A DNA stretch of 64,000 bases from Eledone cirrhosa. Lineage: Eukaryota. Within the stretch, counting starts at the first letter, position 1. Each line of letters begins with the position of its first letter. A program made the position numbers and the translations under genes. Below the pieces are notes generated by a model that was not told the DNA's origin, made no database searches, and worked only from the letters and a program-made list of their open reading frames with translations. The stretch spans positions 16,430,001 to 16,494,000 of the forward strand of contig OZ024743.1 in assembly GCA_964016885.1 (NCBI GenBank), written 5' to 3'. Below, in pieces: positions 12,299-60,800 of this stretch.

Positions 12299-12303
<5 letters not shown>

Positions 12304-14003: not shown

Positions 14004-14039
<36 letters not shown>

Positions 14040-26394: not shown

Positions 26395-26707
26395 AAAAAC
26401 TGACGTGCCAAATTAGCTGTGTATAGAATCTACTTGCATCGATTCAACGAAAACTTACTATATATATGATGTTGAGACTATTCGAATACCATATTCCTAC
26501 TCCTTATTTCTATTATACACACGCTGACTCACACACACACACACACACATACACACACCCACACACATACGCACACGCACACATACACCCACCCACACCC
26601 ACACACGCACGCACACACACAGACACACATATAAATATAGATAGATACATAGATGGATAAATAGATAGATAAATAGAGAGATCTATATGTGTATATATAT
26701 ATGTTTA
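26395..26707. repeat. Left arm of a distant inverted duplication (partner 48612-48866)
   Basis: ~120 bp of near-identical complex sequence plus matching CA/TAGA microsatellite pattern. Confidence 0.85.
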
Positions 26708-28600: not shown

Positions 28601-30205
28601 TATATTTAGTTTGATTTATAATTATATGGGAAACTAGCCGATAAATCTTTGATTCTCTTTTTACTCTTTTTATTTTTATTTTATTTATTTAAACATTCTT
28701 CATGAAAAATTAAGCTATCCTAAAAGTTGATGCTCCAAATATTTCGAATAAACGTTACACTAGATAAACTTCTATATTAAATATAAGAACACATGTAGAC
28801 CAAATTGGGCATCCTACACTTTTTGAAATGATCTTTGCTAGATGCGATTTGATAGATAATTTTTGGCTTTATCTGTTTTTCGACTCTGATGTTTATAATG
28901 AACTTGGCAATATATTGTCAATTAATTTTGAAGGGTTGATCTTTGTGGTTTATTTTATTTTTATTACTGTAGTATTTCCTAATTTTTATTTTTAATATTT
29001 TTAATATGTAAATTTTTTAATATGTAATATTTTTAATATGTAATATTCTTTCGTAATATTTCTTAGTTTTCTATTTTATTATTACTTATTATTATTATTG
29101 TTATTTTTAGTTTAGTTTTGTTTCCGATATATTTTATTTTTATTTTTATTAGTATATTGAAATCTGCTCTATCTTTGCTTGATAGATAATCTTGTAGAGT
29201 AGAGACAGAAATAGTAATATTGACTCTATATACACATATATGTATACTTAAATTTTTATACCGCATTGAGAATACTTTCCGTGAACTTAGGGTTTGCAGA
29301 ATTGATCATGTACATTCACATAGATGTTTGTAATTATCATATAAACATATGAATTTTTTAAAAAAAATTAAACATAAGATCATTAATTTTCACACATTGT
29401 GGATACATATCTCATTCAGGAATACTGATATTTACAATGCGGAGGCTGGTTTTGTAAATACTAATACCTCTACATTAAAACAGAGGTTTTTACGCCTCGC
29501 CTGTGTCTGGATATTTTTGAATTTTCTCTCTCTCTTTTTTTCTCTCTCTATATTTTTTCTCTACCTATATAACAGCTGGTTTTCCCTCCATATATCTCCC
29601 CTACATTAATACTAGAGCTAAACAAATAAATAAATAAATAAATGTATCATTGATACGTTATTCAACAGTCGTCCCACTACCTAGCTTTCTATATATGTAT
29701 CTATCTCTATTTCCTCTCTCTCTATATATATATATATATATATCTTTCTGTTTCTTTACATGAAGTTCTTCTCTTTATCTATCTTTCCATCTCTCTCTTT
29801 TGTTCCATGCATTTCTTCTTTTTCTTTTTCTTCGTTTTCTGTCTTTCTTTCCTTTTTTCTCTCTTTTTCTCTCTTTCTCTCTCTCTTTCTTTCTCTCTGT
29901 GTACAATTTTGTCACAACCAAATCAACCTTCTCAAATGCAAGTAGATGTTGTTACGGTATGTCGAATCTATTTATCTATAAAACTGTTTATATTGTATTT
30001 TGTCTGAGGAAGGCATAGCATATTGTTAATATGTTATCCCTGAAATATATATAATGAAATAAATATGGTTTTATAAATATAGTTTCCATTTATTTAATAT
30101 TGTAAATATACTCCAAATATTTGTCGAGTGCTTTTATATCAGTTATAAATATTTACTAGTTGTAACACAACAATTTAAATATAACTTTCCATATATATAT
30201 ATATA

Positions 30206-31021: not shown

Positions 31022-33790
31022 TAGAAAGGATGAATATAAAATGAAAGTGCTTTTTTTAAAAAAGGAATTTATTAGGTATTGACATATGTTTCTGTAACAG
31101 ACTGAATACCTATGTATCGCTGCTTGCGTAATCATATAATGTTAGCAAGTATTCGATAGCAAATGTATAATCAGTTGTCACTTCTTCAGAGAGTTTGGAT
31201 AAATTGGATCAAATCAGAAAAATTGAAGTATTTATATTAGTAAAAGAGGAAGAAACAGAGGGGAGAGTATATGACAGATGGTAAATTAATTTACTGCTAA
31301 ACAAGTATATAATGGGTTTCTAATGATAATACCATGAGTAAATCTAAATAAGAATTTTGGGAGTGCCAATTTTAATCTCTACTCGACCAACTGGACAGTG
31401 GACAGGGCTGGTCATTTGGTGCAGTAGTATTAATTATAAAGTGTCAATTAGGGAAGGGGGAGATTTCGATTGCTACTAAATAACATCAATGCTAGTAGCC
31501 AGCTGGTATATGCATTAGAGAATTGAATCAAGAAATCAGAAATCTCATTTTATCTATAGCAGTTTGTATTAAAAGGTAAATAATAGAAGAGTTGATAGAA
31601 TTAAGACTAATAAAGAATGTTAATATCTATTTTGACAATCAAACGGGAATAGAGACAGGCGTTCAATCCTGGTAGTATTTATAATATGAAAATGTAGATT
31701 TTAAGCGATGGTTACAGTATAACGATCGCTCTATTCTGTTATTTAATAAAATGTTTTTGGATTTCATAATACAAAATAATTCTACATTACATAATTTACA
31801 AAATTCCTGTCCATGGGATATGGGGGGGGGGGGCAGTCGCTACTATATCCCATTTTAGGTGAAATTGTTGGTTATTTTCACGCAGCTGCCAAGCCTTGTC
31901 TGTGAGTGTTGTTACATAACGCTGGTTTTCATGTTTTATCGAGTAACGATGTCTATAAAGACGTGATTTGAAGGAGGTGGCTGTAGATCCCACATAGTAC
32001 CACTTCTGTCTATCCGATTCGATAGTACATTTGTATACGATGTTGCGTTCAAAACACTGATTGTTCAACGGACACATTCCTGGTTGGACACAGTTGCAAT
32101 TATAATTTTGCGTTGTTGTATTGCCATGGATGGGTTGATGAGGTTGCTTATGTAGGACAAGATGTTGTTTGTTGTTTTGTGATGTTATAGCTAATGTTTT
32201 ACGTGTATTGTTATGTGTTGGAAGGCGTTTATACAACCGTTTTGCGTTAAGCTTTTTTATATGTTGTTCAATATTAGGGGCGGTTGAATATGAAAGTCGA
32301 ATAGTGTTAGGGTTTAATATTTTATTATATTTATGTGATGTTGGAAAGTGTTTTTTAACTAATCGAAAGAATTTTGAGGGTAGATTGGTTTTAATAGAGT
32401 TGTTATAGACCGGGTTGTACCAAATATACTCCTTACATCGCCTTCTGTTTGGTGGTGTGCGACTATTATTGTGTCTATTGCAGTAGTGTATGTATGGTGG
32501 TGATTCTGTGCTATTTCTACTCCTATGTGATTTATTTTGAGTGTTTTGGTGATCTTTGACTATATACTCTATATTATCTAGGTGACCGGCTTTCCTAAGT
32601 GCATCATCATAATATTCGGCATGTTCTTTGAAGGTTTGTTGGTTGGACGACAGGCGGGAGATTCTAAGAGAAACATTTCTAGGGATGGATTTAATTATAG
32701 AGAGTGGATGGTTAGAACTCGTATTTACATATTTAAGGTTCTCATTTAGTTTATGGAACGGTTTAATCGTATCTGTATTGAGATTGAAAGTAACATCAAG
32801 GAAATTGACCTCTTTGAGGTTATATTCAAATGTAATATTTAATCCTAGTTCCTTAAAAAGCTTTCTGATATTTTTACGCATCCTTTCTAAATTCAGGTTA
32901 TTCATATGCTTAACTAATAGGAGCGCATCGTCACGGTAGATTCCACCGTGGAGATCCTTGAATTTTCCTTGTAATCTGTGGGTGATATAAATTCCCACAA
33001 GATCTGTTACTTCCGCCGAATCATTAGAACCCATAGTGATATCAAAATTAGAAGGTCTATCTTTGAGAACCCAGTAGCTATCATTGAATTTAACTATAGT
33101 TTTCCTCGCTTCCATAATAATTTTAATTTCAGCATCCGTAAGGTCGGAATTATCCTTAGCGAACGAAAGAGCTTCATGATTGTCAAAATAGATATTAACA
33201 TTCTTTATTAGTCTTAATTCTATCAACTCTTCTATTATTTACCTATTAATACAAACTGCTATAGATAAAATGAGATTTCTGATTTCTTGATTCAATTCCC
33301 TAATGCATATATCAGCTGGCTACTAGCATTGATGTTATTTAGTAGCAATCGAAATCTCCCCCTTCCCCAATTGACACTTTATAATTAATACTACTGCACC
33401 AAATGACCAGCCCTGTCCACTGTCCAGTTGGTCGAGTAGAGATTAAAATTGGCACTCCCAAAATTCTTATTTAGATTTACTCATGGTATTATCATTAGAA
33501 ACCCAGTATATACTTGTTTAGCAGTAAATTAATTTACCATCTGTCATATACTATCCCCTCTGTTTCTTCCTCTTTTACTAATATAAATACTTCAATTTTT
33601 TGATTTTATCCAATTTATCCAAAACCTCTGAAGAAGTGAGAACTGATTATACATTTGCTATCGAATACTTGCTAACATTATATGATTACGCAAGCAGCGA
33701 TACATAGGTATTCAGTCTGTTACAGAAACATATGTCAATACCTAATAAATTCCTTTTTAAAAAAAAGCACTTTCATTTTATATTCATCCT

Positions 33791-33836: not shown

Positions 33837-36012
33837 TTATTAAAATAACATTAACATTTAAACAAAGAATCGCTGCTTTCAGGCTTAACGGGATCTTCTG
33901 AAACTAACAAACTCAATCTGTGAACGCAAAAGTGAATATTTCAAAAAACGTTGCAACCGGAGGAAGACAGGAGGACGATACTTTGGTTCGTGGAATCGTT
34001 CCCTGGCAAAGAACGGGAAAAAACGAATATAATATGTCATTATTTGGAGCGGTGAAAAACAATTACACGCAAAGACAAAACCACGTTTATGGTATAAAAG
34101 AAGTCATAGACTAATATCCTATTAGGTGGTTCATAGAGACGTTCTCTGGCAATGAACTGAAAAAACGAAAATAATACGTCATATGTGGAGCGGGGAGAAC
34201 ATTTGCACGCAAAGACAACACCACGTAAATGGTATAACTGAAGTCGTAGACTAAAGTTCTAACTAGGAAACCGAATGAATCTCGGCTTCAGAGTTAAAAA
34301 TAAAGTAAATAAAATACAGAGGAAATAACGGAAATAAAAGACCATGTGACCTCTGCGCCGAATACAAACACTTGGAGATCCTAGCTAGGGCTAGATCGTA
34401 TAACGGAAATAAAACACCATGTGACCTCTGCGCCGAATACAAACACTGGGAGATCCTAGCTAGGCCTAGATCGTATAACGGAATTAAAAGACTATGTGAA
34501 CTCTGCGCCGAATACAAACACTGGGAGATCCTAGCTAGGCCTAGATCGTATAACGGAAATAAAAGACCATGTGACCTCTGCGCCGAATACAAACACTGGG
34601 AGATCCTAGCTTGGGCTAGATCGTATAACAGAAATAAAAGACCATGTGACCTCTGCGCCAAATAAAAACACTGGAAGATCCTAGCTAGGGTTAGATCGTA
34701 TAACGGAAATAAAACACCATGTGACCTCTACGCCGAATACAAACACTGGGAGATCCTAGCTAGGCCTAGATCGTATAACGGAAATAAAAGAGCACGTGAC
34801 CTCTGCGCCGAATACAAACACTGGGAGTTCCTAGCCAGGGCTAGATCGTATAACAGAAATAAAAGACCATGTGACCTCTGCGCCGAATACAAACACTGGA
34901 ATATCCTAGCTAGGGTTAGATCGTATAACGGAAATACAAGACTATGTGACCTCTGCGCCGTATACAAACACTGGGAGATCCTACCTAGGGCTAGATCGTA
35001 TAACAGAAATAAAAGACCATACGATCTCTGCGCCGCTGAGGCCTGGAAATATTCTACGCCAAAGCCCGCATCTTAAACAAAAAATCTGAGGCAATTTCGG
35101 CTTGTAAACAAATTTCACAAAACTTTCCTGTATTACAGCCCCACATTATACCCTAACGGATAGTACGAACTATACGCGGATATTTTACATCTTCATGTGG
35201 GAGCTAATTATATGTTATGTTTATACCATTACTTATTTGTATAGGTAAGTATATAATACCTGTATGTTCTGTAAAGGTACGTATACTTTTTCGTACGTAT
35301 ATTTGATTGTATATGTTATGGCGTATATATTATATATTCTGGTACATATGCTTTTGGTTATGTGTATACGTGAGTTTTGTGTTTGTGTGAGTATGCGGGT
35401 TCGTACGTATGTAGGGTGTATGTATATGTGTACTTTGTGTTTGGGTTGACGTCGTCTACGAACATATGTGTATTTACATGTAGGTATGCGTGTGCGCTGT
35501 TATATACGTATTTATTTATATACGTTTATTTAATTATATGTATACACGCACACACACACATATATATATATTCTTTTCATATATATTTTATGTATATTTG
35601 GTGTATACATTCGTATGCATGCGGGTACAGGTGTTGGTGTGGGCTCTGTATGTGCGTTTTTTTGTGTACGCGCATGTATTTGTACACCTATGGCGAGTAT
35701 TTTCGCGTATGATTGTGTATGTACGTATATGGATGCGTGTATGTATTTATTTAATTTCAATTATCTCTGCATTTTATTTACTTTATTCTTAACTCTGAAG
35801 CCGATAATCATTCGGTGTCCTAGTTAGAATTTCTACGACTTCAGTTACACCATTTACGTGGTTTTGTCTTTGCGTGCAATTGTTCTCCTCGCATCACATA
35901 TGACGTATTATCTTCGTTGTTTCCGTTCATTGCCAGAGAACGTCTCTATAAGCCATCTAATAGAATATTAGTCTACGACTTCTTTTATACCATAAACGTG
36001 GTTTTGTCTTTG
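33836..36012 (+). mobile_element. Rearranged 3' fragment of the Nematis family seen at 20.8-23.2 kb, with inverted 5' pLTR
   Basis: 33836-34010 is inverted to 23035-23203; 34071-34322 is inverted to 35762-36012; 35036-35243 matches 22822-23032. Confidence 0.85.
34325..35035 (+). repeat. ~9.5 tandem 75-bp units derived from the GIY-YIG C-terminal coding sequence
   Basis: Unit starts at 34366, 34441, 34516 ... 34966; encodes HWEILARARSYNGNKRPCDLCAEYK; single copy at ~22750-22823. Confidence 0.95.
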
Positions 36013-39000
36013 ATTCAACAGAATCAGAAAGAATTATAAAGGAGATATCATCGAAATTATCAACACTTATCACGATGATGGACACACAATCCTCTATTTT
36101 AAAGGAAATAGAAAAACAATCTACAGACGGAAAACTTATAACTGAACATATAAACTCTGAAATTAAGAATTTAGCTGAAATTATACCAACAGTTATCAAA
36201 GATACAAGAGAAAGCCTACCACAACCCCCTTCGTGTCAGAAATAAACGAAAGAAATTTGGAAAACAAAACACATCGAATAAGAAAAGAAATGTGGAAGAC
36301 ATGGAAAAAATTCCTTAACATAAGAAAACAAAATTTCTGGAAGGCATACAAATGCGAAAAGTATGTCGAAACACATTCGAAATGGCTCTCTCTAACGGCA
36401 CCCATACTGCCTCGTAAATACCTAATTACAGAAATTGCAGGAGAACCAGAAGAAGAAACAAAACTCCGATGGGAACTTACATTGACAATATTCAGGACCG
36501 ACATCTCCATTTCTGAATGTAAACAATCCCGCTACAAAGCCAAATATGAAGCTATTGATGACCAAATTGAAGTTGAAATTCAAAGCTAACGACTGGTATT
36601 ATAGCTGAAAAACTCCGAGAACTATGGATCAGAGATATCTCAAAAGAAGAAAACAAATCAAGAAAGGTATGGCAGCAGAAACAATTATTTCTCGACGAAT
36701 ATGCTGCAAATTACGGTAAAGACTCTGGAACCCTGAGAAAAAGCATTAAAAGTGGACAATCTCATCAACACAACATACGCCAGAACACGTGCCAACACAA
36801 ACACTCACATTACCTTGAATCAAAGAAGAACTACGGTAATAACTCTTCGCTTTTTCTACAAAAACACCCTAACGCACACAACATGAACAAAAAGCACAAA
36901 CACAATAGATATTATTTTGACCAGACCATGAGAAGTAGTAAAACCAGGAGATCATTCTCAAGATCTCAACAGAGACTACCCGCAAGGAACGGGGAAACAA
37001 AACATAGAATAACCAGATCACTCTCAAGATCTCAACAGAGATTGCCCACAAGAAACTGGACGAAAAAACGATATAAACCTGAAAGCAAACCTAGGTCATT
37101 TCCCCAGATTGTTAAAAATAATGCTAACAGGAAGAAAAATAATATACAGAATACCAAAAATAGGACAAAATACATAACGAAACCAAATATAATATCACGA
37201 CCCAAAGTTCATCAAGCGAACACCAACAGGAATATAAATCCTGAACAGAGAAAAATCCATTTTTTAACGTCAGGACAACAAAAACCGGAAAAAGAAGAAC
37301 TCCAGGATGAAATATACCCAAAACAACTGTACACGTAGATCCTAAAATAATTAATTTATCTAAAAAGAGATCTTGACAATGATGAAATGCAAATTCTGTC
37401 AAAAGGACTGAATTCACACCGACTCCAACAGTCAACCACCAAGAACTGAAGGAGAATACCCAAGAATTCTGTCGAAAATTACGTCTTGTAGAATTCTTCG
37501 CTGATAAAAGTAATGAGAGTGATGAATAACTAGTAAAGAATAAATCAAATTTCACTCCGCCAAAAGGAAGAAATATCTATCTCGAGCAATACATTGACAT
37601 CCTGTCTAAATTTCCTCCTAGACGTAATATTAATGTTAGGCCAAACATTAACAAATCAGAAATGTCTGCACTTAAACGTATACAAAATGATAAAACAATA
37701 ATAATTAAACAAGCAGATAAAGGGGGTGCAGTTGTTATAATGGATACTGAATACTACAAGGATTTGGTTGAGGAACAACTGAAAGACACAACATTCTATC
37801 ATGAAATACCGTCAAATATAGACCACAACATCATGAAGAAGATCAACAACCTGGCTTCAAAATACCACAACTCACTTACTGATAAGGAAAGAGACTACAT
37901 CACCAATTTTGAGCCAAAACCCAGCAACCTGTATGGCCTACCGAAAGTTCATAATCAAAAGAAATACAACTGGCAGTAAGAGAACAAAACAGTGAGTACA
38001 TTAAATTATTACACCCAAAAGACTTAAAACTTAGACCTATTATAGCTGGTCCAACATGCCCCACCCACCGTCTAAGCGATTTTGTTGACATTATTTTGAA
38101 ACCACTATGTATTCACATACACAGTTTCATCCGTGATGATATCGACTTCCTGTCCCATCTTCCCAAAACCACGGAAACGAATTCACTTCTACTCAGTTTT
38201 CATGTGGTAAGCCTTTACACCAACATTACACATGATTTAGGAATAAAGGCGGTTAAATACTAGGTGGAAAAACATAGAGAAGGGATTCCCATCAGATTCA
38301 CAGCGCCATTTATATTAGACGCAGTTAAACTTATTCTGGAAAACAACACTTTCTTCTTCAATGGAAAGAATTACATCCGAATTAGAGGCACAGCGATGGA
38401 AACGAAGTTTGCTCCCGTTTACGCGAACTCTGTAATGGGATACTTAGAACAACAACTCTACCAAGAAATACAAGAAAAATATAGTACTGACTTTAGAAAG
38501 TACATTGAAAAATCTTGGAAGAGATACCTTGACGACTGTTTCATCATCTGGACAGAATCTCTAGATACTCTGGATGAGTTCAATATCCTCCTGAATAACC
38601 TACACCCATCTCTCCAATTCACAAAAGAGATGAGTAGGACCAAATTACCATTCCTAGATATAATGATAATCAAAAACGACACCACCATTACCACGGATAT
38701 ATATTATAAACACACAGACACCCATCAATATCTGAATTTTAAGTCGTGCCATCCACCTCATACAAATCGCAATATCCCATACTGCCTAGCCAGAATAATT
38801 TGTACCATTGTAGAAGATACGAATACCAGGTACAGCCGCCTAACAGAACTAAGAGAATTTTTGCTCAAACAAAAATACCCATCTCTACTTATAGAAAATG
38901 GCATACAGCGGGCTATAAAAATACCTATACAACCACTTAGGACAACCCAAGGAAGAAGAAACCAAGAACTGGTCATACCATTTATAATGAGATACAACCC

Positions 39001-39618
39001 ATGTCACCAGAATATCTTCAACACTGCCAAAGCAAACCTACCGATCATTGCTCAAAGTAATGAATTAAAAGGCTTAATCACAGATCGATCTTTGACTCTT
39101 AGTAAAAGACAGCCGAAAAAGTTGAAGCAATTACTAACAAAAGCAAAGTTTGACCTTAACAACAAAGACCAATCATTCACTGTATCTAAATGCAATGATA
39201 GTCGATGCGGCACATGTCAATCCCTACACGCCGGTCAATATATGAAAACAAAAACTGGAAAAATATTCCCAAATGCAATTATGAACTGCAAAAGCAGAAA
39301 TCTAATTTACTGCATTAAATGCCCGAATTGTGAAGAACTATATGTCGGTCAAACTGGAAATGCACTATCGGAACGTGCACGGGTACACCGTCAACAAATC
39401 AGAGACCCACATGTCCGTTAGATACCCCTAAGTAACCATCTAGCAACATGTGGTCAGGGAATATTTATAATATTCCCATTCTACAAATTACACAGCCCGA
39501 GTGAAATCAAGAGAAAAATCAAAGAAAAGAATGTTATTGATAAATTCAAACCCAAGCTAAATGAACAATAATAACGCTTAGGGGTATTACTTCTACTACC
39601 ACTATGACTACGACCACT

Positions 39619-40807: not shown

Positions 40808-40881
<74 letters not shown>

Positions 40882-41458
40882 TTGTAATATAATGAAACGA
40901 AATTTCATTTCTCACTCTTAGTACGGCACTTACTTAAATGTAAGTATGTATGTATACGTACATACATATATGTATACAGACGTACAGTAGCATGCATATA
41001 TATATATATATATATACATATATACATACAGGTACACATATATATATGTACGTATCAGTTTAGCGAACGTTTATTATACCGCCCGCTTTGTTCGTTTGTA
41101 AACAAGCGAACAGCCTGATTTATGCCATACGGTGTTAAGGCAACCACGTCACCTTTTTGTTCAACATTGACACAAGAACGATGTACTAGTTTCAAGCTTG
41201 TTAGCTATCATCAGCACCGTATACCCTTCTGCCAGATAGTTGAACGCTCGAAAGTATATACTTTCCTTATGAAAATTAACGGCTGAGCAGCCTAATTTGC
41301 ATATCGAGTGAGTTAAGTCGGCCAGGCGTACCGAAAACGATAAGTTGTAATATAATGAAACGAAATTTCATTTCTCACTCTTATAACGGCACTTACTTAA
41401 ATATAAGTATGTATGTATACGTACATACATATATGTATACAGACGTACAGTAGCATGC

Positions 41459-41489
<31 letters not shown>

Positions 41490-42380
41490 TACATACAGGT
41501 ACACATATATACATGTACGTATCAGTTTTACGAACGTTTATTATAACGCCCGCTTTGTTCGTTTGTAAACAAGCGAACAGCCTGATTTATACCATACGGT
41601 GTTAAGGCAACCACGTCACCTTTTTGTTCAACACTGACACACGAAGGATGTACAAGTTTCAAGCTTGTTAGCTATCATCAGCACCGTATACCCTTCTGCC
41701 AGATAGTTGAACGTTCGAAAGTATATTCTTTCCTTATGAAAATTAACGGCTGAGCAGCCTAATTTGCATATCGAGTGAGTTAAGTCGGCCAGGCGTACCG
41801 AAAACGATAAGTTGAAATATAATGAAACGAAATTTCATTTCTCACTCTTAGACGGCACTTACTTAAATGTAAGTATGTATGTATACGTACATACATATAT
41901 GTATACAGACGTACAGTAGCATGCATATATATATATATATACATATATACATACAGGTACACATATATATATGTACGTATCAGTTTAGCGAACGTTTATT
42001 ATAACGCCCGCTTTGTTGGTTTGTAACCAAGCGAACAGCCTGATTTATGCCATACGGTGTTAAGGCAACCACGTCACCTTTTTGTTCAACACTGACACAA
42101 GAACGATGTACTAGTTTCAAGCTTGTTAGCTATCATCAGCACCGTTTACCCTTCTGCCAGATAGTTGAACGTTCGAAAGTATATACTTTCCTTATGAAAA
42201 TTAACGGCTGAGCAGCCTAATTTGCATATCGAGTGAGTTAAGTCGGCCAGGCGTACCGAAAACGATAAGTTGTAATATAATGAAACGAAATTTCATTTCT
42301 CACTCTTAGTACGGCACTTACTTAAATGTAAGTATGTATGTATACGTACATACATATATGTATACAGACGTACAGTAGCA

Positions 42381-42418
<38 letters not shown>

Positions 42419-42869
42419 CATATATACATACAGGTACACATACATATATGTACGTATGAAACAAAATTATAAGTAAGTGCCGTAAAGAGTGAGAAATGAA
42501 ATTTCGTTTCATTATATTACAACTTATCATTTTCGGTACGCCTGGCCGACTTAACTCACTCGATATGCAAATTAGGCTGCTCAGCCGTTAATTTTCATAA
42601 GGAAAGTATATACTTTCGAACGTTCAACTATCTGGCAGAAGGGTATACGGGGCTGATGATAGCTAACAAGCTTGAAACTAGTACATCGTTCCTGTGTCAG
42701 TGTTGAACAAAAAGGTGACGTGGTTGACTTAACACCGTATGGCATAAATCAGGCTGTTCGTTTGTTTACAAACGAACAAAGCGGGCGTTATAATAAACGT
42801 TCGCTAAACTGATACGTACATATATATATATGTGTACCTGTATGTATATATGTATATATATATATATAT

Positions 42870-45800
42870 ATGTAAGTATGCATGTATACGTACATACATA
42901 TATGTATACAGACGTACAGTAGCATGCACATATATATATATATATACATATATACATACATATGCATACAGGTACACATACATATATGCACGTATCAGTT
43001 TAGCGGCGCTAACGTCGCTTTGTTCGTTTGTAAACAAACTGAACAGCCTGAATTTATGCCATACGGTGTTAAGGCAACCACGTCACCTTTTTGTTCAACA
43101 CTGACACAGGAACGATGTACTAGTTTCAAGCTTGTTAGCTATCATCAGCACCGTTTACCCATCTGCCAGATAGTTGAACGTTCGAAAGTATATACTTTCC
43201 TTATGAAAATTAACGGCTGAGCAGCCTAATTTGCATATTGAGTGAGTTAAATCGGTCAGGCATACCGAAAACGATAAATTGAAACAAAATGAAAACGAAA
43301 TTTCATTTCTCACTCTTAGTATGGCACTTACTTAAATGTAAGTATGCATGTATACGTACATACATATATGTATACAGACGTACAGTAGCATGCACATATA
43401 TATATATATATACATATATACATACATATGCATACAGGTACACATACATATATGCACGTATCAGTTTAGCGGCGCTAACGTCGCTTTGTTCGTTTGTAAA
43501 CAAACTGAACAGCCTGAATTTATGCCATACGGTGTTAAGGCAACCACGTCACCTTTTTGTTCAACACTGACACAGGAACGATGTACTAGTTTCAAGCTTG
43601 TTAGCTATCATCAGCACCGTTTACCCATCTGCCAGATAGTTGAACGTTCGAAAGTATATACTTTCCTTATGAAAATTAACGGCTGAGCAGCCTAATTTGC
43701 ATATTGAGTGAGTTAAATCGGTCAGGCATACCGAAAACGATAAATTGAAACAAAATGAAAACGAAATTTCATTTCTCACTCTTAGTATGGCACTTACTTA
43801 AATGTAAGTATGCATGTATACGTACATACATATATGTATACAGACGTACAGTAGCATGCACATATATATATATATATACATATATACATACATATGCATA
43901 CAGGTACACATACATATATGCACGTATCAGTTTAGCGGCGCTAACGTCGCTTTGTTCGTTTGTAAACAAACTGAACAGCCTGAATTTATGCCATACGGTG
44001 TTAAGGCAACCACGTCACCTTTTTGTTCAACACTGACACAGGAACGATGTACTAGTTTCAAGCTTGTTAGCTATCATCAGCACCGTTTACCCATCTGCCA
44101 GATAGTTGAACGTTCGAAAGTATATACTTTCCTTATGAAAATTAACGGCTGAGCAGCCTAATTTGCATATTGAGTGAGTTAAATCGGTCAGGCATACCGA
44201 AAACGATAAATTGAAACAAAATGAAAACGAAATTTCATTTCTCACTCTTAGTATGGCACTTACTTAAATGTAAGTATGCATGTATACGTACATACATATA
44301 TGTATACAGACGTACAGTAGCATGCACATATATATATATATATACATATATACATACATATGCATACAGGTACACATACATATATGCACGTATCAGTTTA
44401 GCGGCGCTAACGTCGCTTTGTTCGTTTGTAAACAAACTGAACAGCCTGAATTTATGCCATACGGTGTTAAGGCAACCACGTCACCTTTTTGTTCAACACT
44501 GACACAGGAACGATGTACTAGTTTCAAGCTTGTTAGCTATCATCAGCACCGTTTACCCATCTGCCAGATAGTTGAACGTTCGAAAGTATATACTTTCCTT
44601 ATGAAAATTAACGGCTGAGCAGCCTAATTTGCATATTGAGTGAGTTAAATCGGTCAGGCATACCGAAAACGATAAATTGAAACAAAATGAAAACGTCTGT
44701 ATACATATATGTATGTACGTATACATGCATACTTACATTTAAGTAAGTGCCATACTAAGAGTGAGAAATGAAATTTCGTTTTCATTTTGTTTCAATTTAT
44801 CGTTTTCGGTATGCCTGACCGATTTAACTCACTCAATATGCAAATTAGGCTGCTCAGCCGTTAATTTTCATAAGGAAAGTATATACTTTCGAACGTTCAA
44901 CTATCTGGCAGATGGGTAAACGGTGCTGATGATAGCTAACAAGCTTGAAACTAGTACATCGTTCCTGTGTCAGTGTTGAACAAAAAGGTGACGTGGTTGC
45001 CTTAACACCGTATGGCATAAATTCAGGCTGTTCAGTTTGTTTACAAACGAACAAAGCGACGTTAGCGCCGCTAAACTGATACGTGCATATATGTATGTGT
45101 ACCTGTATGCATATGTATGTATATATGTATATATATATATATATGTGCATGCTACTGTACGTCTGTATACATATATGTATGTACGTATACATGCATACTT
45201 ACATTTAAGTAAGTGCCATACTAAGAGTGAGAAATGAAATTTCGTTTTCATTTTGTTTCAATTTATCGTTTTCGGTATGCCTGACCGATTTAACTCACTC
45301 AATATGCAAATTAGGCTGCTCAGCCGTTAATTTTCATAAGGAAAGTATATACTTTCGAACGTTCAACTATCTGGCAGATGGGTAAACGGTGCTGATGATA
45401 GCTAACAAGCTTGAAACTAGTACATCGTTCCTGTGTCAGTGTTGAACAAAAAGGTGACGTGGTTGCCTTAACACCGTATGGCATAAATTCAGGCTGTTCA
45501 GTTTGTTTACAAACGAACAAAGCGACGTTAGCGCCGCTAAACTGATACGTGCATATATGTATGTGTACCTGTATGCATATGTATGTATATATGTATATAT
45601 ATATATATATGTGCATGCTACTGTACGTCTGTATACATATATGTATGTACGTATACATGCATACTTACATTTAAGTAAGTGCCATACTAAGAGTGAGAAA
45701 TGAAATTTCGTTTTCATTTTGTTTCAATTTATCGTTTTCGGTATGCCTGACCGATTTAACTCACTCAATATGCAAATTAGGCTGCTCAGCCGTTAATTTT

Positions 45801-47592
45801 CATAAGGAAAGTATATACTTTCGAACGTTCAACTATCTGGCAGATGGGTAAACGGTGCTGATGATAGCTAACAAGCTTGAAACTAGTACATCGTTCCTGT
45901 GTCAGTGTTGAACAAAAAGGTGACGTGGTTGCCTTAACACCGTATGGCATAAATTCAGGCTGTTCAGTTTGTTTACAAACGAACAAAGCGACGTTAGCGC
46001 CGCTAAACTGATACGTGCATATATGTATGTGTACCTGTATGCATATGTATGTATATATGTATATATATATATATATGTGCATGCTACTGTACGTCTGTAT
46101 ACATATATGTATGTACGTATACATGCATACTTACATTTAAGTAAGTGCCATACTAAGAGTGAGAAATGAAATTTCGTTTTCATTTTGTTTCAATTTATCG
46201 TTTTCGGTATGCCTGACCGATTTAACTCACTCAATATGCAAATTAGGCTGCTCAGCCGTTAATTTTCATAAGGAAAGTATATACTTTCGAACGTTCAACT
46301 ATCTGGCAGATGGGTAAACGGTGCTGATGATAGCTAACAAGCTTGAAACTAGTACATCGTTCCTGTGTCAGTGTTGAACAAAAAGGTGACGTGGTTGCCT
46401 TAACACCGTATGGCATAAATTCAGGCTGTTCAGTTTGTTTACAAACGAACAAAGCGACGTTAGCGCCGCTAAACTGATACGTGCATATATGTATGTGTAC
46501 CTGTATGCATATGTATGTATATATGTATATATATATATATATGTGCATGCTACTGTACGTCTGTATACATATATGTATGTACGTATACATGCATACTTAC
46601 ATTTAAGTAAGTGCCATACTAAGAGTGAGAAATGAAATTTCGTTTTCATTTTGTTTCAATTTATCGTTTTCGGTATGCCTGACCGATTTAACTCACTCAA
46701 TATGCAAATTAGGCTGCTCAGCCGTTAATTTTCATAAGGAAAGTATATACTTTCGAACGTTCAACTATCTGGCAGATGGGTAAACGGTGCTGATGATAGC
46801 TAACAAGCTTGAAACTAGTACATCGTTCCTGTGTCAGTGTTGAACAAAAAGGTGACGTGGTTGCCTTAACACCGTATGGCATAAATTCAGGCTGTTCAGT
46901 TTGTTTACAAACGAACAAAGCGACGTTAGCGCCGCTAAACTGATACGTGCATATATGTATGTGTACCTGTATGCATATGTATGTATATATGTATATATAT
47001 ATATATATATGTGCATGCTACTGTACGTCTGTATACATATATGTATGTACGTATACATGCATACTTACATTTAAGTAAGTGCCATACTAAGAGTGAGAAA
47101 TGAAATTTCGTTTTCATTTTGTTTCAATTTATCGTTTTCGGTATGCCTGACCGATTTAACTCACTCAATATGCAAATTAGGCTGCTCAGCCGTTAATTTT
47201 CATAAGGAAAGTATATACTTTCGAACGTTCAACTATCTGGCAGATGGGTAAACGGTGCTGATGATAGCTAACAAGCTTGAAACTAGTACATCGTTCCTGT
47301 GTCAGTGTTGAACAAAAAGGTGACGTGGTTGCCTTAACACCGTATGGCATAAATTCAGGCTGTTCAGTTTGTTTACAAACGAACAAAGCGACGTTAGCGC
47401 CGCTAAACTGATACGTGCATATATGTATGTGTACCTGTATGCATATGTATGTATATATGTATATATATATATATATGTGCATGCTACTGTACGTCTGTAT
47501 ACATATATGTATGTACGTATACATGCATACTTACATTTAAGTAAGTGCCATACTAAGAGTGAGAAATGAAATTTCGTTTTCATTTTGTTTCA

Positions 47593-47596
<4 letters not shown>
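42870..47596. repeat. Near-identical 466-bp units: ~3.9 copies then ~6.2 inverted copies (switch at ~44694)
   Basis: ORF track repeats with a 466-bp period; one unit is 468 bp (extra TA). Confidence 0.97.
44919..44963 (+). ncRNA. Minimal type I hammerhead (representative; also starting 45385, 45851, 46317, 46783, 47251)
   Basis: aacggtg CTGATGA t agct aaca agct t GAAA c ta g TA catcgtt; outer stems ctggca/tgtcag and gttcaac/gttgaac. Confidence 0.85.
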
Positions 47597-47635
<39 letters not shown>

Positions 47636-48068
47636 TGCTACTGTACGTCTGTATACATATATGTATGTACGTATACATACATACTTACATTTAAGTAAGT
47701 GCCGTACTAAGAGTGAGAAATGAAATTTCGTTTCATTATATTACAACTTATCGTTTTCGGTACGCCTGGCCGACTTAACTCACTCGATATGCAAATTAGG
47801 CTGCTCAGCCGTTAATTTTCATAAGGAAAGTATATACTTTCGAACGTTCAACTATCTGGCAGAAGGGTATACGGTGCTGATGATAACTAACAAGCTTGAA
47901 ACTAGTACATCGTTCCTGTGTCAGTGTTGAACAAAAAGGTGACGTGGTTGCCTTAACACCGTATGGCATAAATCAGGTTGTTAGCTTGTTTACAAACGAA
48001 CAAAGCGGGCGTTATAATAAACGTTCGCTAAACTGATACGTACATATATATATGTGTACCTGTATGTA

Positions 48069-48106
<38 letters not shown>

Positions 48107-48154
48107 TGCTACTGTACGTCTGTATACATATATGTATGTACGTATTCATACATA

Positions 48155-48200
<46 letters not shown>

Positions 48201-48319
48201 TGCAATAGCTATTCTCAATTTACTACATACGTAGTGAATGGAGAATAGATATTACACAATTATGGTGCAAATTCTATATAATTAAACTAAGTTTAATGAT
48301 TCGTTCTCTTTCGTGAATC

Positions 48320-48600
48320 AGGTACTGGGAAGATGTGAGGATGAGGGTGTCGTCCACGTACCTTGAGAAAAAGGCGACGGCGTTGGGGTGGCATGTGTTG
48401 AGTGCCTCGCGCTCGAGGCTGTCCACGTATGAGATCGCTAGTGCACCCGACAGGCTTGAGCCCATGAGCAGCCCCGAGGTTTACCGGTATGTTTGGTCGA
48501 GAAAACCGAAATACGTGTTGTCAACGTCGACGGATAGGAGCTGATGGATGTCAATGGGTGTTAGCCCGAAGCAGTTTAGGTCGGATGTAAAGAGCGACCA
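48320..48600 (-). pseudogene. GC-rich Penelope-like RT core fragment of another clade
   Basis: NTYFGF..YR*TSGLLMGSSLSGALAISYVDSLE..FSRYVDDTL; internally deleted, between microsatellites. Confidence 0.7.
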
Positions 48601-52366: not shown

Positions 52367-53789
52367 ATTTGAAAATGTTTAAATCCAAACACGGAATTAC
52401 TACAATGATGCTATCTTTAGAAAATCGAGTAAAATATCCTTAGGGACAAAACCTATATGGCCACAAGACACTACAGATACTCGAACATTATATCTCTTGA
52501 GTTCCGGTGAAGCTCGTTATTTACTACGCGACATGGTAGCTGATAACAATTATCCTTTAAATTAGGAAATATATATAATAGTTTAAGAGTTTAAACCCGG
52601 TAGTAAACAAATATTTTATGTATGGAGGTATTTGGATAATTTCAAATTTCACTTCTACAATCAATGATGCTTTTTTCCTTGCGTTACCACTTACATAATT
52701 TACATCATAGTGTCCCTTGCTTCATTTCAGTTGTAAAACATTGTCTAATTGTTTGTGCACTTCACTGTTTTATTTTAAAAGCACTATAGTTTAATTTTTT
52801 GCCTGTTTCTTTGTTATTATATCGTTACAGATGCACCTATTTAGCAGCATGTTCTTTCAAACCTGCTTGTAATTTGCGAACAACAATTATTCAACTTAAT
52901 CATTTTACAGAAAAAATATATTTTGCAGGTCTTGACGATGCAGAATGTATGATATTGTGTTATTTCTACCAACTTCTCCATACTTATATTCTCCAAGTTT
53001 TAAATATACACATATATATATAAATGTGTGTGTGTCTGTGTGCGTTTGTGTGTGTATGTGTGTGTATATGTGCGCGTGTGTGTGTATGTGTGTGCATGTA
53101 AATATATATATTTATACTCAAACATATGTACAATTTGTTTTAATGTTACATCTGAGAATGTAGCATCGTCTCATCCATGGATTGTACGCTTTGCGTTTTG
53201 CCTTTTGTGGTTTTTCTTTTATTTTCTGATATAATGTCTGTCCGTTTCTATTGTAGCACACAATTCCTATCTTCTGTAAAATATTTCAGTTACTTTATAA
53301 GATTTTCCTAACCCTTTGTCTTGTTCAATCTTCTTGCATGAATATTGCTTTCTTTACACAATGTGTCAAATTCCATTGTAGCACGTTTCGTAATTTATTA
53401 TTGCTACTTAATTACTAAATTTGTTTTATGTATCTTTCTACTTTCTACATTTTCCCCACTAAAAACATACTCTTCTTTTATGGGGACAATTGAAATTAGT
53501 TTAAACAGTTGTATATCTTTCTCAGAATATTTAAGCTTATTTAATTTCTTGCATATTTTCTCAAACATTTTAATGATTCTCGTTTTACTCTCCTATTTGA
53601 TTAATCTCTTTTCCTATTTTTTGTTTCACATGTCTGATACTTAATTTAAACTTCCTATAAAGAATTGCTATTTTGTAGTTGATAATCAATGTTATTATTT
53701 TTTTTTTTGTTTGGCGATTTATTATAATATTGCAGTACATTTTGAAGATTTGTGAGAGGCAGTTTTTAATATAGATTATTTTGCTTTAT

Positions 53790-56700
53790 ATTATTATTAT
53801 TATTACAGTTGCATTTATCTTGCTTTATGTTCATACGAGTTATCACCAAGTCACAACCAGTGACCTCAAGAGACAACAAGGTCCGCCATGTTCAAGAAAG
53901 AACATACATATTCACACATGCATCTTTAGTGTTTAGACTTGTGATGTACTTATATTGACAGAATCTTCCTTAGTATATGAGCAGTTCCCATTAGTACTAT
54001 CTTTTGTATTTCTCCTATACGCGGGTTTCCTGGGGTTTGCGATATGTAATCATTAGACCCCTTAGGTATCATTCCCAGAGCGCCTACAACCACTGGTATT
54101 GTTTTAGTTCTCAATTTCCACATTTTTCCAATTTCTATCTCCAGGTCCTTATACTTGCTCAATTTTTCAAATGTTTTTATAGATACATTCTTGTCTATTG
54201 GAACAGACATATCAATTAGCAGGCATACCTTCTTTTGAAAGTCTTTCAATATTATATCAGGTCTGTTTGCATCTATTTTTCGGTCTGTTTTGATGCTAAA
54301 GTTCCACAATATTGAGATGTGATCTTTTTCAAGTATGGGAGGTGGTTGATGCTCCCACCAATTATTTTGATGGGGCAGGTCAAAATGCTTACACATTATC
54401 CAATGTATGTATTGTGCAGCTCTGTCATGCCTGTTTAGGTATTCGGTTGGAGCTATAGGACTGCACATTGAAATTATATGGTCAATGGTCTCTCGTTGTT
54501 TTTTGCATACACGGCATAATGGGCTGCACCCATTTTTTATTATGTTGGCTTGGTAATTTTTTGTTGGCAGACACTGATCTTGTGCCGATATAATCAGTCC
54601 TTCAGTCTCCGATATCAGTCCAGAGGATGCCAACCACTGATGGGTTAAAGTTTTGTCAACATCAGGATTGTTAGCTCGCTCTGGGTATTTTCCATACAGA
54701 GGCTTTTCTTGCCATTTCTTAGACAGTTTCTGTAGCAGTTCTTTCTTTGCAGTTACTTTTACCTACTTCGCTTTTTCTGTGTTTTCCATTTCAGCAGTAA
54801 ATGGGACTTCTGAAATTTGTAGTCCATTACTGTATCTTTGTGCATCTTTTGTAATGGAATATGATCTTTTGATGCTTTCGTGTTTCAAAACGAGTTTGAT
54901 CATCCAATCATGTGATTCCCTTAGATATGTAGATAATCCAATTGTTGCAGTTTTCAACGCAATGTCTAACTGGATTAACCCACGTCCTCCTTCTTTCCTA
55001 GGGATATATATTCCATCTATATCTGCTTTAGGGTGATGCATTCTGTGCATGGTTAAGAATTTTCGAATTTTTGTATCGAGCCTACGGATCTCTGTACTTG
55101 ACCAGTTGATGACATTGTAACTGTAGGTTACTACTGGTATGGCAAGCGTGTTTATGGCATAGATCCTATTCCTTGCATTCAATTCCGTTTTTAAGATTGC
55201 TCTCACTCTGCGGTAACATTCCTTCCTTATCCTTTCCCTCATTGTCGAGTGCTTGATTCCATCTCCTTCACAAACACCTAGATATCTGTAAGTTTTTTCT
55301 TGATCAAGTTCTCTTATCACATTCCCCCGATCAAGATTAATGTCTGAACTCTTCAGCAGCTTTCCTCTGGTGAACGTTGCTTTGGCGCATTTATCTAGTC
55401 CAAACTCCATTTTAATGTCATCACTGAACTGCTTCACAGTGGATAATAGCCCTTGCAATTGTTCATCATTTTTTGCAAATAGTTTCAGGTCATCCATGTA
55501 GAACAGGTGATTAATGGTTTTGTCATAGACTTTATATCCATGATTTGTTTCATTGAGCATTTTACTTACTGGTATAAGTGCGATGCAGTATAAAAGCGGT
55601 GATAAAGAGTCACCCTGAAAAATTCCACACTTAATATTAACTTCTCCAGCTTCCAGTGATTTTGTTTCACTATTCAAAAGGAGTGTCGTTTTCCATGTCT
55701 TCATACTGAATGACAAAAACCTCCTGACAACGGGGGATACTTTGAAAATCTCTAAACATTTTTCAATCCAACTGTGTGGCAAACTATCAAATGCTTTTTT
55801 ATAATCTATCCAAGCAATCGATAGATTTTTGTGTCTATTATGACAATCTTCCAGTATCATTTTGTTAACCAGAAGCTGATCCTTACAGCCATATGAGCCT
55901 CCTTTACACCCTTTCTGCTCAATGGGAAATAGGTCATTTGTTATCAGGTGGTCATATGTGTATTCAGTTAGGACTGATGATAAAAGTTTATACATTGTGG
56001 TCAAGCAAGTTATCGGTCTGTAATTTTTGGGATTGTTTGTCTCATCATTCTTCGGAAGCAGGAATGTAATGCCGTTAACTAGCCATGAAGGTATCTTTTC
56101 TGGCTCCTTAACTATTTCATTGTAAAGGTGGGCTAACAGCTCATGAGACTCTGTGAAGGCATTTATCCAAAAGTTTTGTATTTTGACTTTTCCTGGGGAT
56201 TTCCATTTGCTGGTTTTTCTTAACTGTTATATTTTCCCATGTTTGTTCCTCAAGGTGAGCTGTATCTTTCATTTGTCTGTCTATCCATGGGGCATGTATG
56301 TTATGAACTTTTTCTTCGGCCCAGATCTTTTCCCAGAATTCTTGCACTTCCTCCTAGGGTGGTATTGATTTAGCAGTTATTGTTGACTTACCAATTTTTC
56401 TGTAGAAGTTTGTTTGGTTGTTTTTTGAACATATTATTGTCCTTATAGAATCTAGATCGTTTTTCAAAGCGCCTTATACGAGCAGCTTTGGTCGACACTT
56501 TTTGCTTGATTATTTCTATCAGAATGTCTATGTCACATGTTGATTTTATACCGTACTTTTTTTTCAATTTTCTAAGTTTAGTTTGTTTAACATGTTCACC
56601 TACTTTATAGCTTGTTAAAATTTCTATGTCAGATCGGAGAAGGTTTATTTGGCGATTGATGTTCTCTTGCCAAGTAGATTTCTTGTGGGAATTCCTTTGT

Positions 56701-57727
56701 TTTTTCATCTTCACTCCACATAAGTGAGTGGTGACTTTAGCCGATGCATAATAGAGATGATTTAAATCAGTAATGTTTAGTTTGTTTGTGATGATAATGT
56801 TTTTGTGAATTATGTTAGTCTTGTGTATTATCTTTTGGTTCTGTTTGGAGTTCTGGATCTTAGGGAGGGTGTCTCGTTGCCCCATGTCAGTTTCTTTCAT
56901 TTTCATCCATTCGATCATAATTTCATCCTTCAAGTTGGCAAGTTCATTCTCATTCATTTCTTTATCATTTACGATCTCATTATTTTCATTTGGTGTTTCA
57001 TCCTGAGCATGCACTCCCTCCACTTTTTCGATCCTTTCTTTAATTTTTTCTGTTGCCAGTGATTCCGCCCCAACCCTGAGATTCGAAGTGTTACAGTTTA
57101 CCTCGTTTTCACTGACACATGTTTCATTTTCCCTTCGCTGACTTTGTGCTAATAGCTTGATCTGATCAATTTCTATATCAGTTAGTAACTTTTTTCTTAC
57201 AATATTTCTTCGTATATTGGCTAGTTTGTTACTGTCAATATAGCCACTGTTTTCGGGATGTTTCTTTTTCCAGTTGATATATGTCTGTTCTGTATTCGAT
57301 GTATTTGATGGGTAGTACATGGCAGTGTAGAAAGCCTCAAGGACTTCTTTATTATCTTCCCTTGACCATTTTTCTCTCTTTTTCTTTGGATTTCTTGGTG
57401 GTGAGTATGGAGGGCCAACAGTAGGAGTATTCCGGTTATGGGAGGTCTCCAGCTCCGAAGTGATGGGAAGGTTTGAACCATTAGCTGATTTTTCGACCCC
57501 AGTCTCGTTCCTCTCTGAGGGACGTGGCCGTTTTTTACGCGGGTGACGGCCGATCCGGTATGAGATTTTATCATTAGACATTTACTTTATTTTGTCGCGT
57601 TTTATCCTTATCCCCCAAGGGGTAATCATTTCGTGTTACCACTTCTAGAACGAGTGTCAACCAAGACTAGAGGGGTCGTTCTCCCCTAGAGACACGGCTA
57701 TTCCCCGCCGGCCGCCATCCCGGTATT
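53790..57727 (-). mobile_element. Full-length R4/Dong-type non-LTR retrotransposon (RT, CCHC, restriction-like endonuclease), copy 1, disrupted
   Basis: WIDYKKAFDS, GIFQGDSLSP, HLFYMDD, CRVC..ETIDHIISMC, RHD, RPD..LID..K..KY; 3' end runs into (TAA)n; ORF 57581-53950 broken by shifts and a stop. Confidence 0.93.
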
Positions 57728-57749
57728 TCTTCTTCTTCTTCTTCTTCTT

Positions 57750-57838
<89 letters not shown>

Positions 57839-57857
57839 CATTATTATTATTATTATT
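57727..57857. repeat. (TTC)n(TTA)n spacer between the two R4/Dong copies
   Basis: Directly visible. Confidence 0.97.
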
Positions 57858-60800
57858 ACAGCTGCATTTATCTTGCTTTATGTTCATACGAGTTATCACC
57901 AAGTCACAACCAGTGACCTCATGAGACAACAAGGTCCGCCATGTTCAAGAAAGAACATACATACTCACCCATGCATCTTTAGGTGTTTAGACTTGTGATG
58001 TACTTATATTGACAGAATCTTCCTTAGTATATGGGCAGGTCCCATTAGTACTATCTTTTGTATTTCTCCTAGATCCGGGTTTCCTGGGATTTGCGATAAG
58101 TAATCATTAGACCCCTTAGGTATCATTCGTAGAGCGCCTACAACCATTGGTATTGTTTTAGTTCTCAATTTCCACATTTTTCCAATTTCTATCTCCAGGT
58201 CCTTATACTTGCTCAATTTTACAAATATTTTTATAGATACATTCTTGTCTATTGGGACGGACATATCAATTAGCAGGCATATCCCCTTTTTAAAGTCCTT
58301 CAGTATTATATCAGGTCTATTTGCATCTATTTTTCGGTCTGTTTGGATGCTAAAGTTCCACAAGATTGAGATGTGATCTTTTTCAAGTATGGGAGGTGGT
58401 TGATGCTCCCACCAATTCTTTTGATGGGGCAGGTCAAAATGCTTACACATTATCCAATGTATGTATTGTGCAGCTCTGTCATGCCTGTTTAGGCATTCGG
58501 TTGGGGCTATAGGACTGCACATTGAAATTATATGATGAATGGTCTCTGGTTGTTTTTTGCATACACGGCATAATGGGCTGCATCCATTTTTTATTATGTT
58601 TGGCTTGTTAAATTTTTGTTGGCAGACACTGATCTTGTGCTGATATAATCACTCCTTCAGTCTCCGATTTCAGTCCAGAGGATGCTAACCACTGATGGGT
58701 TAAAGTTTTGCCAACATCAGGATTGTTAGCTCGTTCTGGGTATTTTCCATACAGAGGTATTTCTTGCCATTTCTTAGTCAGTTTCTGTAGTAAGTTCCTT
58801 CTTTGCAGTTACTTTTACCTGCTTTGCTTTTTCTGTGTTTTCCATTTCAGCAGTAAATGGGACTTCTGAAATTTGTAGTCCATTACTGTATCTTTGTGCA
58901 TCTTTTGTAATGGACTATGATCTCTTGATGATTTCGTGTTTCAAAACGAGTTTGATCATCCAATCATGTGATTCCCTTAGATATGTAGATAATCCAATTG
59001 TTGTAGTTTTCAACGCAATGTCTAACTGGATTAACCCACGTCCTCCTTCTTTCCTAGGGAGATATATTATATCTGTATCTGCCTTAGGGTGATTCATTTC
59101 GTGCATGGTTAATAATTTTCGAATTTTTGTATCGAGCCTATGGATCTCTGTGCTTGACCAGTTGATGACATTGTAACTGTAGGTTACTACTGGTATTGCA
59201 AGCGTGTTTATGGCATCGATCCTATGCCTTGCATTCAATTCCGTTCTTAAGATTGCTCTTACTCTGCGGTAACATTCCTTCCTTATCCTTTCCCTCATTG
59301 TTGAGTGCTTGATTCAGTCTCCTTCACAAACACCTAGATATTTGTAAGGTTCCTCTTGATCAAGTTCTCTTATCACATTTTCCCGATCAAGATTAATGTC
59401 TGAACCTTTCACCAGCTTCCCTCTGGTGAACGTTGCTTTGGCGCATTTATCTAGTCCAAACTCCATTTTAATGTCATCAATGAACTGCTCAACAGTGGAC
59501 AATAGCCCTTGCAATTGTTCATCATCTTTTGCATATTGTTTCAGGTCATCCATGTAGAACAAGTGATTAATGGTTTTGTCATAGACTTTATATCCATGTT
59601 TTGTTTCATTGAGCATTTTACTTAATGGTATAAGTGCGATGCAGAATAAAAGTGGTGATAAAGAGTCACCCTGAAATATTCCACAATTAATATTAACTTC
59701 TCCAGCTTCTAGTGATTCCTTTTCACTATTCAAAAGGAGTGTCGTTTTCCATGTCTTCATACTGAATGACAAGAACCACCTGACAACGGGACATATTTTG
59801 AAAATCTCTAAACATTTTTCAATCCAACTGTGTGGAAAACTATCGAATGCTTTTTTTATAATCTATCCAACCAATTGATATATTTTTCTGTCTATTATGA
59901 CAATCTTCTTGTATCATTTTGTTAAACAAAAGCTGATCCTTACAGCCATATGAGCCTCGTTTACACCCTTTCTGCTCAATGGGAAATAGGTCATTTGTTA
60001 TCAGGTGGTCATATGTATATTCAGTTAGGACTGATGTTAACATTTTATACATTGTGGTCAAGCAAGTTATCGGTCAGTAATTTTGGGGATTGTTTGTCTC
60101 ATCATTCTTCGGAAGCAGGAATGTAATGCCGTTAACTAGCCATGATGGTATCTTTTCTGGCTCCTTAACTATTTCATTGTAAAGTTGGGCTAACAGCTAA
60201 TACGACTCTGTGAAGGCATTTATCAACAAATTGTTGTATTTTGTCTTTTCCTGGGGATTTCCATTTGCTGGTTTTTCTAAGAGCCAAACGCAACTGTTCG
60301 ACTGTTATATTTTCCCATATTTGTTCCTCAAGGTGAGCTGTATCTTTCATTTGCCTGTCTATCCATGGGGCATGTATGTTATGAACTTTTTCTTCGGCCC
60401 AGATCTTTTCCCAGAATTCTTGCACTTCCTCCTTGGGTGGTATTGATTTAGCAGTTATTGTTGACTTACCAATTTTTCTATAGAAATTTCTTTGGTTGTT
60501 TTTGAACATATAATTGTCCTTATAGAATCTAGATCGTTTTTCAAAGCGCCTTATGCGAGCAGCTTTGACCCACACTTTTTGCTTGATTATTTCTATCAGC
60601 ATGTCTATGTCACTTGTTGATTTTATACTGTACTTTCTTTTAAATTTTGTAAGTTTAGTTTGTTTAACATGTTCACCTACTTTATAGTTTGTTAAAATTT
60701 CTATGTCAGATCGGAGAAGGTTTATTTGGCGATTGATGTTCTCTTGCCAAGTAGATTTCTTGTGGGAATTCCTTTGTTTTTTCATCTTCACTCCACATAA

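What the first reader, a model, noticed from the sequence alone, without database searches (positions are those of the whole stretch)
42870..47631. Young array inserted into the internal (TA)n of an older array of its own family
Seen: the older-variant unit breaks at its internal TA tract (~42850-42870) and resumes in register at 47632 (atgcatgctactgtacg); between lies a block of almost identical younger units. Inference: the unit carries its own target site, so arrays grow by repeated self-targeted retrotransposition rather than only unequal crossover.
Basis: partly seen in the sequence, partly recalled or inferred. Interest (0 to 1): 0.72.

Follow-up and report, generated by a model that had tools for sequence, protein, structure and literature searches.

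The report
Ribozyme repeat nested inside itself
A fresh ten-copy block of a ribozyme-bearing repeat sits inside the TA stretch of an older copy of the same repeat, likely pasted in one step by a Penelope-type enzyme, but such self-nesting is only about as frequent as random landing in any TA stretch and is not how these arrays get their length.

Summary
The nest is real. Removing 42870-47598 rejoins an older unit in register and leaves one complete older insertion. The young block is not a plain array: it is 3.9 inverted plus 6.2 direct units of 466 bp, joined 5'-to-5', with no substitutions. Each unit carries a minimal type I hammerhead (10,391 exact copies of the 36-base core), so this is an animal non-LTR retrozyme showing the known Penelope footprint: tandem plus inverted arms, two fixed start sites, (TA)n targets. 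Five of 821 young insertions were found in the family's own TA tract, against about 5.9 expected if all genomic TA tracts are equal targets. None of 60 sampled young arrays continues into family sequence beyond its tail. Arrays are likely born at full length in one event. The scan has already reported this two-armed design for other families in this genome. New here are the nesting rate and rare TA-bounded reiterations that may reflect re-priming. No RNA run, long read or partner enzyme could be tested.

The parts
40877..42457 (-). Old host insertion, arm A: about 3.4 units, outer end at the tail site (unit position 107) against (TA)n
42458..42469 (.). 12-base filler at the 5'-5' junction of the old insertion
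   Evidence: sequence
42470..42870 (+). Old host arm B, first part (unit position 48 to the internal TA tract), broken here
42853..42871 (.). Left TA run (19 bases) of the target tract
42870..44695 (-). Young insertion, arm A: 3.9 units, exact; outer end at the short site (unit position 46), inner end at position 85
44693..44695 (.). 3-base overlap at the 5'-5' junction of the young arms; the same junction recurs once elsewhere (L219)
44693..47598 (+). Young insertion, arm B: 6.2 units, exact but for one extra TA; outer end at the tail site (unit position 108)
45386..45428 (+). Minimal type I hammerhead motif (one example; present in every full unit): 6-pair stem I, conserved core, 4-pair stem II over a U-U mismatch, palindromic loop 3; predicted cut after 45422
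45594..45610 (.). Internal (TA)n tract of a young unit (17 bases; one example)
47596..47632 (.). Right TA run (37 bases) of the target tract
47633..48158 (+). Old host arm B, remainder: resumes in register, ends at the short site (unit position 43) against (TA)n

Best explanation
The block is one recent, two-armed insertion of a 466-bp non-coding hammerhead repeat into the internal (TA)n of an older insertion of the same family, likely written in a single event by a Penelope-type reverse transcriptase/endonuclease, and self-nesting occurs at about the rate expected from plain TA targeting. Shown: the anatomy, two outer end sites about 60 bases apart, scattered inner ends joined over microhomology, TA flanks, homogeneity within arrays, and the nesting rate. 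Inferred: the enzyme cuts both strands of a (TA)n tract; each free end primes cDNA at one of two internal start sites (unit positions about 43-49 and 108); each runs a variable number of units, likely round a small RNA circle made by the hammerhead; the two cDNA ends are then joined. The internal TA tract is a landing pad like any other. It also yields rare TA-bounded duplications.
For: Removing the block leaves one host with one tail end and one short end, the usual complement. Of 60 young loci picked by their tail end, 48 have an inverted second arm, 43 of those 48 end at unit positions 40-49, and 40 of the 43 abut at least 8 bases of pure TA; the tail end is fixed by selection, the second end is not. 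Inner ends are scattered; 13 of 48 junctions overlap by 3 or more bases against 6.8% at random. In 11 of 60 the last sense segment is the tail alone, starting at 44-53, against 1.3 expected (includes L137, where more sense sequence precedes it). In 26 arrays (130 units), 17 variants are shared by all units, 62 are private and 4 are partial. A 7-base deletion is in all five hammerheads of L158 and nowhere else in G000. The old host's 27 variable cases are 26 private and 1 shared. Hammerhead variation falls at free positions (N7, loop 2) and one stem I pair reads G-U, A-U or U-G. Five more nests rejoin on both sides: L100, L102/L179, L103 (with a 176-base foreign piece), L105, L230. PMC11167929 shows a Penelope-like protein cutting and extending both strands from two internal RNA start sites. 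PMC8557442 describes tandem, inverted, tail and (TA)n features.
Against: No autonomous partner sharing the unit's ends was found among the loci held. The Rfam hammerhead match is below threshold (18.5 bits against 52, E 0.049). The tail is about 60 bases, longer than the 30-40 in print. The L139 variant, shared by both arms, is not private: 97 copies at many loci, so homogeneity can also come from a uniform multimeric transcript. Three of 26 arrays have partially shared variants (L128, L130, L164), pointing to some local duplication or dimer templates. In PMC11167929 ribozyme cutting was not needed for insertion in vitro. The nest counts are lower bounds: the patterns need exact context and a gap of about 75 bases at most, and one older nest (L230) was missed. 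A roughly twofold self-preference is not excluded on a per-base null.
Confidence: 0.8

Rival explanations
1. Arrays grow by repeated, preferential self-targeted retrotransposition into the unit's own TA tract.
For: Six self-nests with both host halves exist (window, L100, L102/L179, L103, L105, L230). On a per-base null the expected number is about 2-3 against 5 seen. PMC11167929 proposes nicking within an element's own repeat.
Against: 5 of 821 matches the per-tract expectation of 5.9. 0 of 60 sampled. Units inside arrays carry no insertion scars, and arms reach 14.9 or more units without them. Foreign elements use the tract as well.
Confidence: 0.06
2. The block was copied as DNA from a donor array by recombination between TA tracts, or arose by unequal crossover.
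For: The young 5'-5' junction occurs a second time in G000. TA-bounded duplications exist at five loci (L101, L222, L223, L224, L225-228).
Against: The twin (L219) has only 0.9 plus 0.2 units, a different tail end and no shared unique flank. L151 and L177 share a junction but differ in sub-variant, so junctions recur independently. Crossover does not make an inversion with two fixed ends.
Confidence: 0.06
3. Assembly chimera or collapsed repeat.
For: Ten identical units; no reads were examined.
Against: Both ends are canonical element ends, the host halves complement each other, and five other loci show the same design. The unit count could still be off.
Confidence: 0.04
4. A rolling-circle DNA transposon of the Helentron/DINE-1 kind (recalled: internal microsatellites, tandem copies).
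For: Tandem multimers, an internal microsatellite, hairpins in the unit.
Against: Two opposed arms, each truncated at the inner end; a conserved hammerhead; ends as described for Penelope-like elements. Helentron termini were not tested directly.
Confidence: 0.04

Closest known systems
Animal non-LTR retrozymes (PMC7229834: passages and Discussion; bioRxiv 10.64898/2026.07.22.740005: parts 1-3 of 5)
   Same: Non-coding tandem units of a few hundred bases, low GC, a type I hammerhead in each unit, Penelope-like elements in the same genome.
   Different: The text read does not describe two opposed arms with fixed start sites or nesting. The preprint attributes tandems to local amplification; here they look born at insertion. 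The hammerhead is of the minimal, Penelope-associated type.
Penelope-like elements, Hydra/Neptune/Naiad clades (PMC8557442: passages and sections 11, 15; PMC3846280: passages; PMC4209133: part 1 of 4)
   Same: Partial tandems, inverted 5'-truncated copy, tail at one end, (TA)n targets, minimal hammerhead with palindromic loop 3, secondary insertion into other Penelope copies.
   Different: No open reading frame; both arms are multimers (up to 8.7 and 14.9 or more units); the tail is about 60 bases.
Poseidon PAc in vitro (PMC11167929: parts 1-2 of 4)
   Same: Both strands cut and extended, two internal RNA start sites that define the tail, AT-rich target, own repeat usable as target.
   Different: PAc is autonomous and its start sites are 30-40 bases apart; here both start sites end in a TA or AT dinucleotide that merges with the target.

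Membership tests
Animal non-LTR retrozyme | Short non-coding tandem unit, low GC | tested here: met
   466 bp, about 37% GC, only repeat-derived frames of 92-114 codons
Animal non-LTR retrozyme | Type I hammerhead in consecutive units | tested here: met
   Core, stems and palindromic loop 3 by motif scan; variation at free positions; Rfam hit only below threshold
Animal non-LTR retrozyme | Self-cleavage of the RNA | not testable with these tools
   Needs in vitro transcription of a dimer
Animal non-LTR retrozyme | Expression as circular RNA | not testable with these tools
   No RNA run was available to lay
Penelope-mobilised element | Partial tandem with inverted 5'-truncated copy | tested here: met
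   48 of 60 young loci
Penelope-mobilised element | Tail at one end (two start sites) | tested here: met
   43 of 48 second ends at positions 40-49 against the tail at 108; about 60 bases rather than 30-40
Penelope-mobilised element | (TA)n target | tested here: met
   40 of 43 unselected ends abut pure TA
Penelope-mobilised element | Target-site duplication | tested here: inconclusive
   Hidden by TA; one candidate of about 38 bases (L151), others at most 8-13
Penelope-mobilised element | Ends shared with an autonomous partner | tested here: inconclusive
   None among loci L001-L178 and the window; the genome-wide DNA search returned nothing for a common word set
Autonomous Penelope-like element | RT plus GIY-YIG open reading frame | tested here: not met
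   No such frame in the unit
Helentron/DINE-1 | Subterminal inverted repeats and fixed ends on both sides | not tested
   Inner ends are scattered; termini were not compared with Helentron models

The most novel reading that the evidence does not exclude
Two reverse transcriptases copy one RNA circle from both ends of a double-strand cut. When a growing cDNA has just copied the unit's internal (TA)n, its end looks like a fresh target and re-primes at the start site, in telomerase-like fashion. That would explain the 2-5-fold TA-bounded reiterations at L101, L222-L228 and the stutters at L122. The nests would also date subfamilies directly.
Probability: 0.2. Interest if true: 0.65.

Novelty: new member of a known kind. 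Interest (0 to 1): 0.4.

Why it matters
It separates two ideas about how retrozyme satellites form. Array length appears to be set at insertion, not by later self-targeting, and only slightly by crossover. A family with about 800 near-identical young insertions gives fixed start sites, junction statistics and nested pairs that order subfamilies. These are usable for the open question of how Penelope-type enzymes make tandem and inverted insertions.

Tried and rejected
A DNA similarity search of G000 returned nothing (common words are skipped), so exact patterns were used. Rfam on the whole array gave only TA-driven microRNA hits below threshold among the 150 rows listed of 304. Short folds did not single out the hammerhead (z -0.35 for the young copy), as expected for a minimal motif. 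Of the 8 hits, three were dropped: L101 (TA-bounded duplication), L104 (a different family in the tract) and L099 (ambiguous). Of the 9 hits at 6 loci, one was already known, one was a new nest (L230) and four loci were short reiterations. The idea that all-unit variants are locus-private held for L158 and failed for L139. A Hydra-type element beside a tail fragment in L147 is not a partner: the adjoining sequence is an inverted copy of the flank. Sequencing runs: no RNA holder listed. Paper searches listed no paper on a retrozyme nested in its own microsatellite; 20 of 50 hits were listed, and no supplements were seen.

Full report
Observation. The region 40877-48158 holds one repeat family in two versions. 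The young block has two opposed arms: 42870-44695 (minus strand, 3.9 units) and 44693-47598 (plus strand, 6.2 units). Both match a single 466-base unit exactly, except for one extra TA. Around it lies an older insertion: a minus arm 40877-42457 and a plus arm that starts at 42470, breaks at its internal TA tract, resumes at 47633 and ends at 48158. The two versions differ in 33 of 350 core columns. The five old units carry 26 private changes and one shared change, which is decay after insertion without homogenisation. With the block removed, the host has one tail end and one short end, like other family members.

What the unit is. Each unit holds a minimal type I hammerhead: six-pair stem I, conserved core, short stem II and palindromic loop 3. 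Rfam finds it only below threshold. The 36-base core occurs 10,391 times exactly in G000, with 0 control matches. Across 187 distinct copies the variable positions include N7 and loop 2, and one stem I pair reads G-U, A-U or U-G. This is the motif described for Penelope-like elements, thought to work as a dimer (PMC4209133, part 1). The window also carries a frame with the Hydra motifs DKT and CxCx5C (26669-28600), with a hammerhead downstream at 30004, and a Neptune-like element with a GIY-YIG match below the Pfam cut-off (motifs from PMC8557442). Neither was shown to be the partner.

How insertions are built. There are 821 young tail ends running into TA, and 2,809 across subfamilies. I fetched 8 kb for the first 60 of the 821. 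Of these, 48 have an inverted second arm, 43 of the 48 end at unit positions 40-49, and 40 of the 43 abut pure TA. The tail end is fixed by my selection; the second end is not. Inner ends are scattered and overlap more than chance (13 of 48 by 3 or more bases, against 6.8%). Several one-armed cases show a stub of the second arm or an inverted copy of the flank. In 26 arrays with two or more full cores, 17 variants are in every unit, 62 in one unit and 4 in a subset. A 7-base deletion fills all five hammerheads of L158 and occurs nowhere else. The L139 variant, by contrast, marks a small subfamily of 97 copies. This anatomy matches the in vitro behaviour of PAc, which extends both cut strands from two internal RNA sites (PMC11167929), and the circular-template model for retrozymes (PMC7229834). 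The enzyme, the circle and the cleavage are inferred, not shown.

Is self-targeting special? Gapped patterns for a tail end followed by the rest of a family tract gave 8 hits. Five are young self-nests that rejoin on both sides: the window, L100, L102/L179, L103 and L105. One is a duplication, one a different family and one ambiguous. A pattern from the other end added one older nest, L230. The family offers 12,955 internal tracts. Fifty-two arbitrarily placed 10-kb stretches give 1.79 million TA tracts of 12 or more bases genome-wide (95% range 1.32-2.31 million) and 91 Mb of TA. That predicts 5.9 nests among 821 per tract, or about 2-3 per base; 5 were found, a lower bound. None of the 60 sampled tails continues into family sequence. 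Unrelated elements sit in the same tract in L100, L103, L104 and L161. Self-nesting is therefore real, recurrent and rare, with no clear preference.

Side effects of the internal tract. Five loci show duplication of the segment between an internal tract and an end: about 60 bases repeated 2-5 times (L222-L228) or 1.3 units (L101). Slippage between TA tracts explains this. Re-priming by the reverse transcriptase is the bolder reading and is untested.

Rivals. The young junction recurs once, in a 1.1-unit insertion with no shared unique flank. L151 and L177 show that junctions can recur independently, so a DNA donor is not indicated, though a parent-daughter link is not excluded. An assembly chimera is unlikely but was not tested on reads.

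Verdict. This is a new retrozyme family with a known Penelope footprint. Earlier notes of this scan report the same design for other families in this genome; none was returned for this sequence or for self-nesting. The nest is a clean illustration of TA targeting, not a growth mechanism. Interest 0.4.

Noticed in passing
window 8843-9905: Older two-armed copy of the same family (about 80% identity) in (TA)n; its hammerhead has A-U in stem I where the young type has G-U.
   Followed up: partly
window 12299-14013: 317-bp array (5.2 copies, 99%) with a short inverted piece, between TA tracts, with a hammerhead-like variant; a similar end sits in this family's internal tract in L104.
   Followed up: no
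window 26669-30190: Hydra-type Penelope-like frame (643 codons stop to stop) with a long 3' region holding a minimal hammerhead at 30004; relatives at 20898-22864 and 31796-33238.
   Followed up: partly
window 35964-39421: Broken Neptune-like element (DKG motif, cysteine linker, GIY-YIG).
   Followed up: partly
window 34325-35035: 75-bp array (9.5 copies) resembling the endonuclease end of the Hydra-type element near 22759-22826.
   Followed up: no
window 53789-61807: Tandem pair of a 4-kb non-LTR retrotransposon (94% identical, RVT_1 match).
   Followed up: no
window 11334 and 48290-48600: A third minimal hammerhead family, and a Penelope-type RT fragment on the minus strand.
   Followed up: no
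L158:unit positions 257-263: A deletion that removes hammerhead loop 3 is present in all five units and nowhere else in G000, so a ribozyme-dead unit was still multiplied.
   Followed up: partly
L120, L147, L165: In place of a second arm there is an inverted copy of flanking DNA, suggesting fold-back priming on the target.
   Followed up: partly
L219:6985-7516: A minimal insertion with the same 5'-5' junction as the window's young block; recurrence or parent-daughter link unresolved.
   Followed up: partly
The unit is held by runs under 15 coded organism labels plus one metagenome, so the family extends beyond this genome; none was laid.
   Followed up: no
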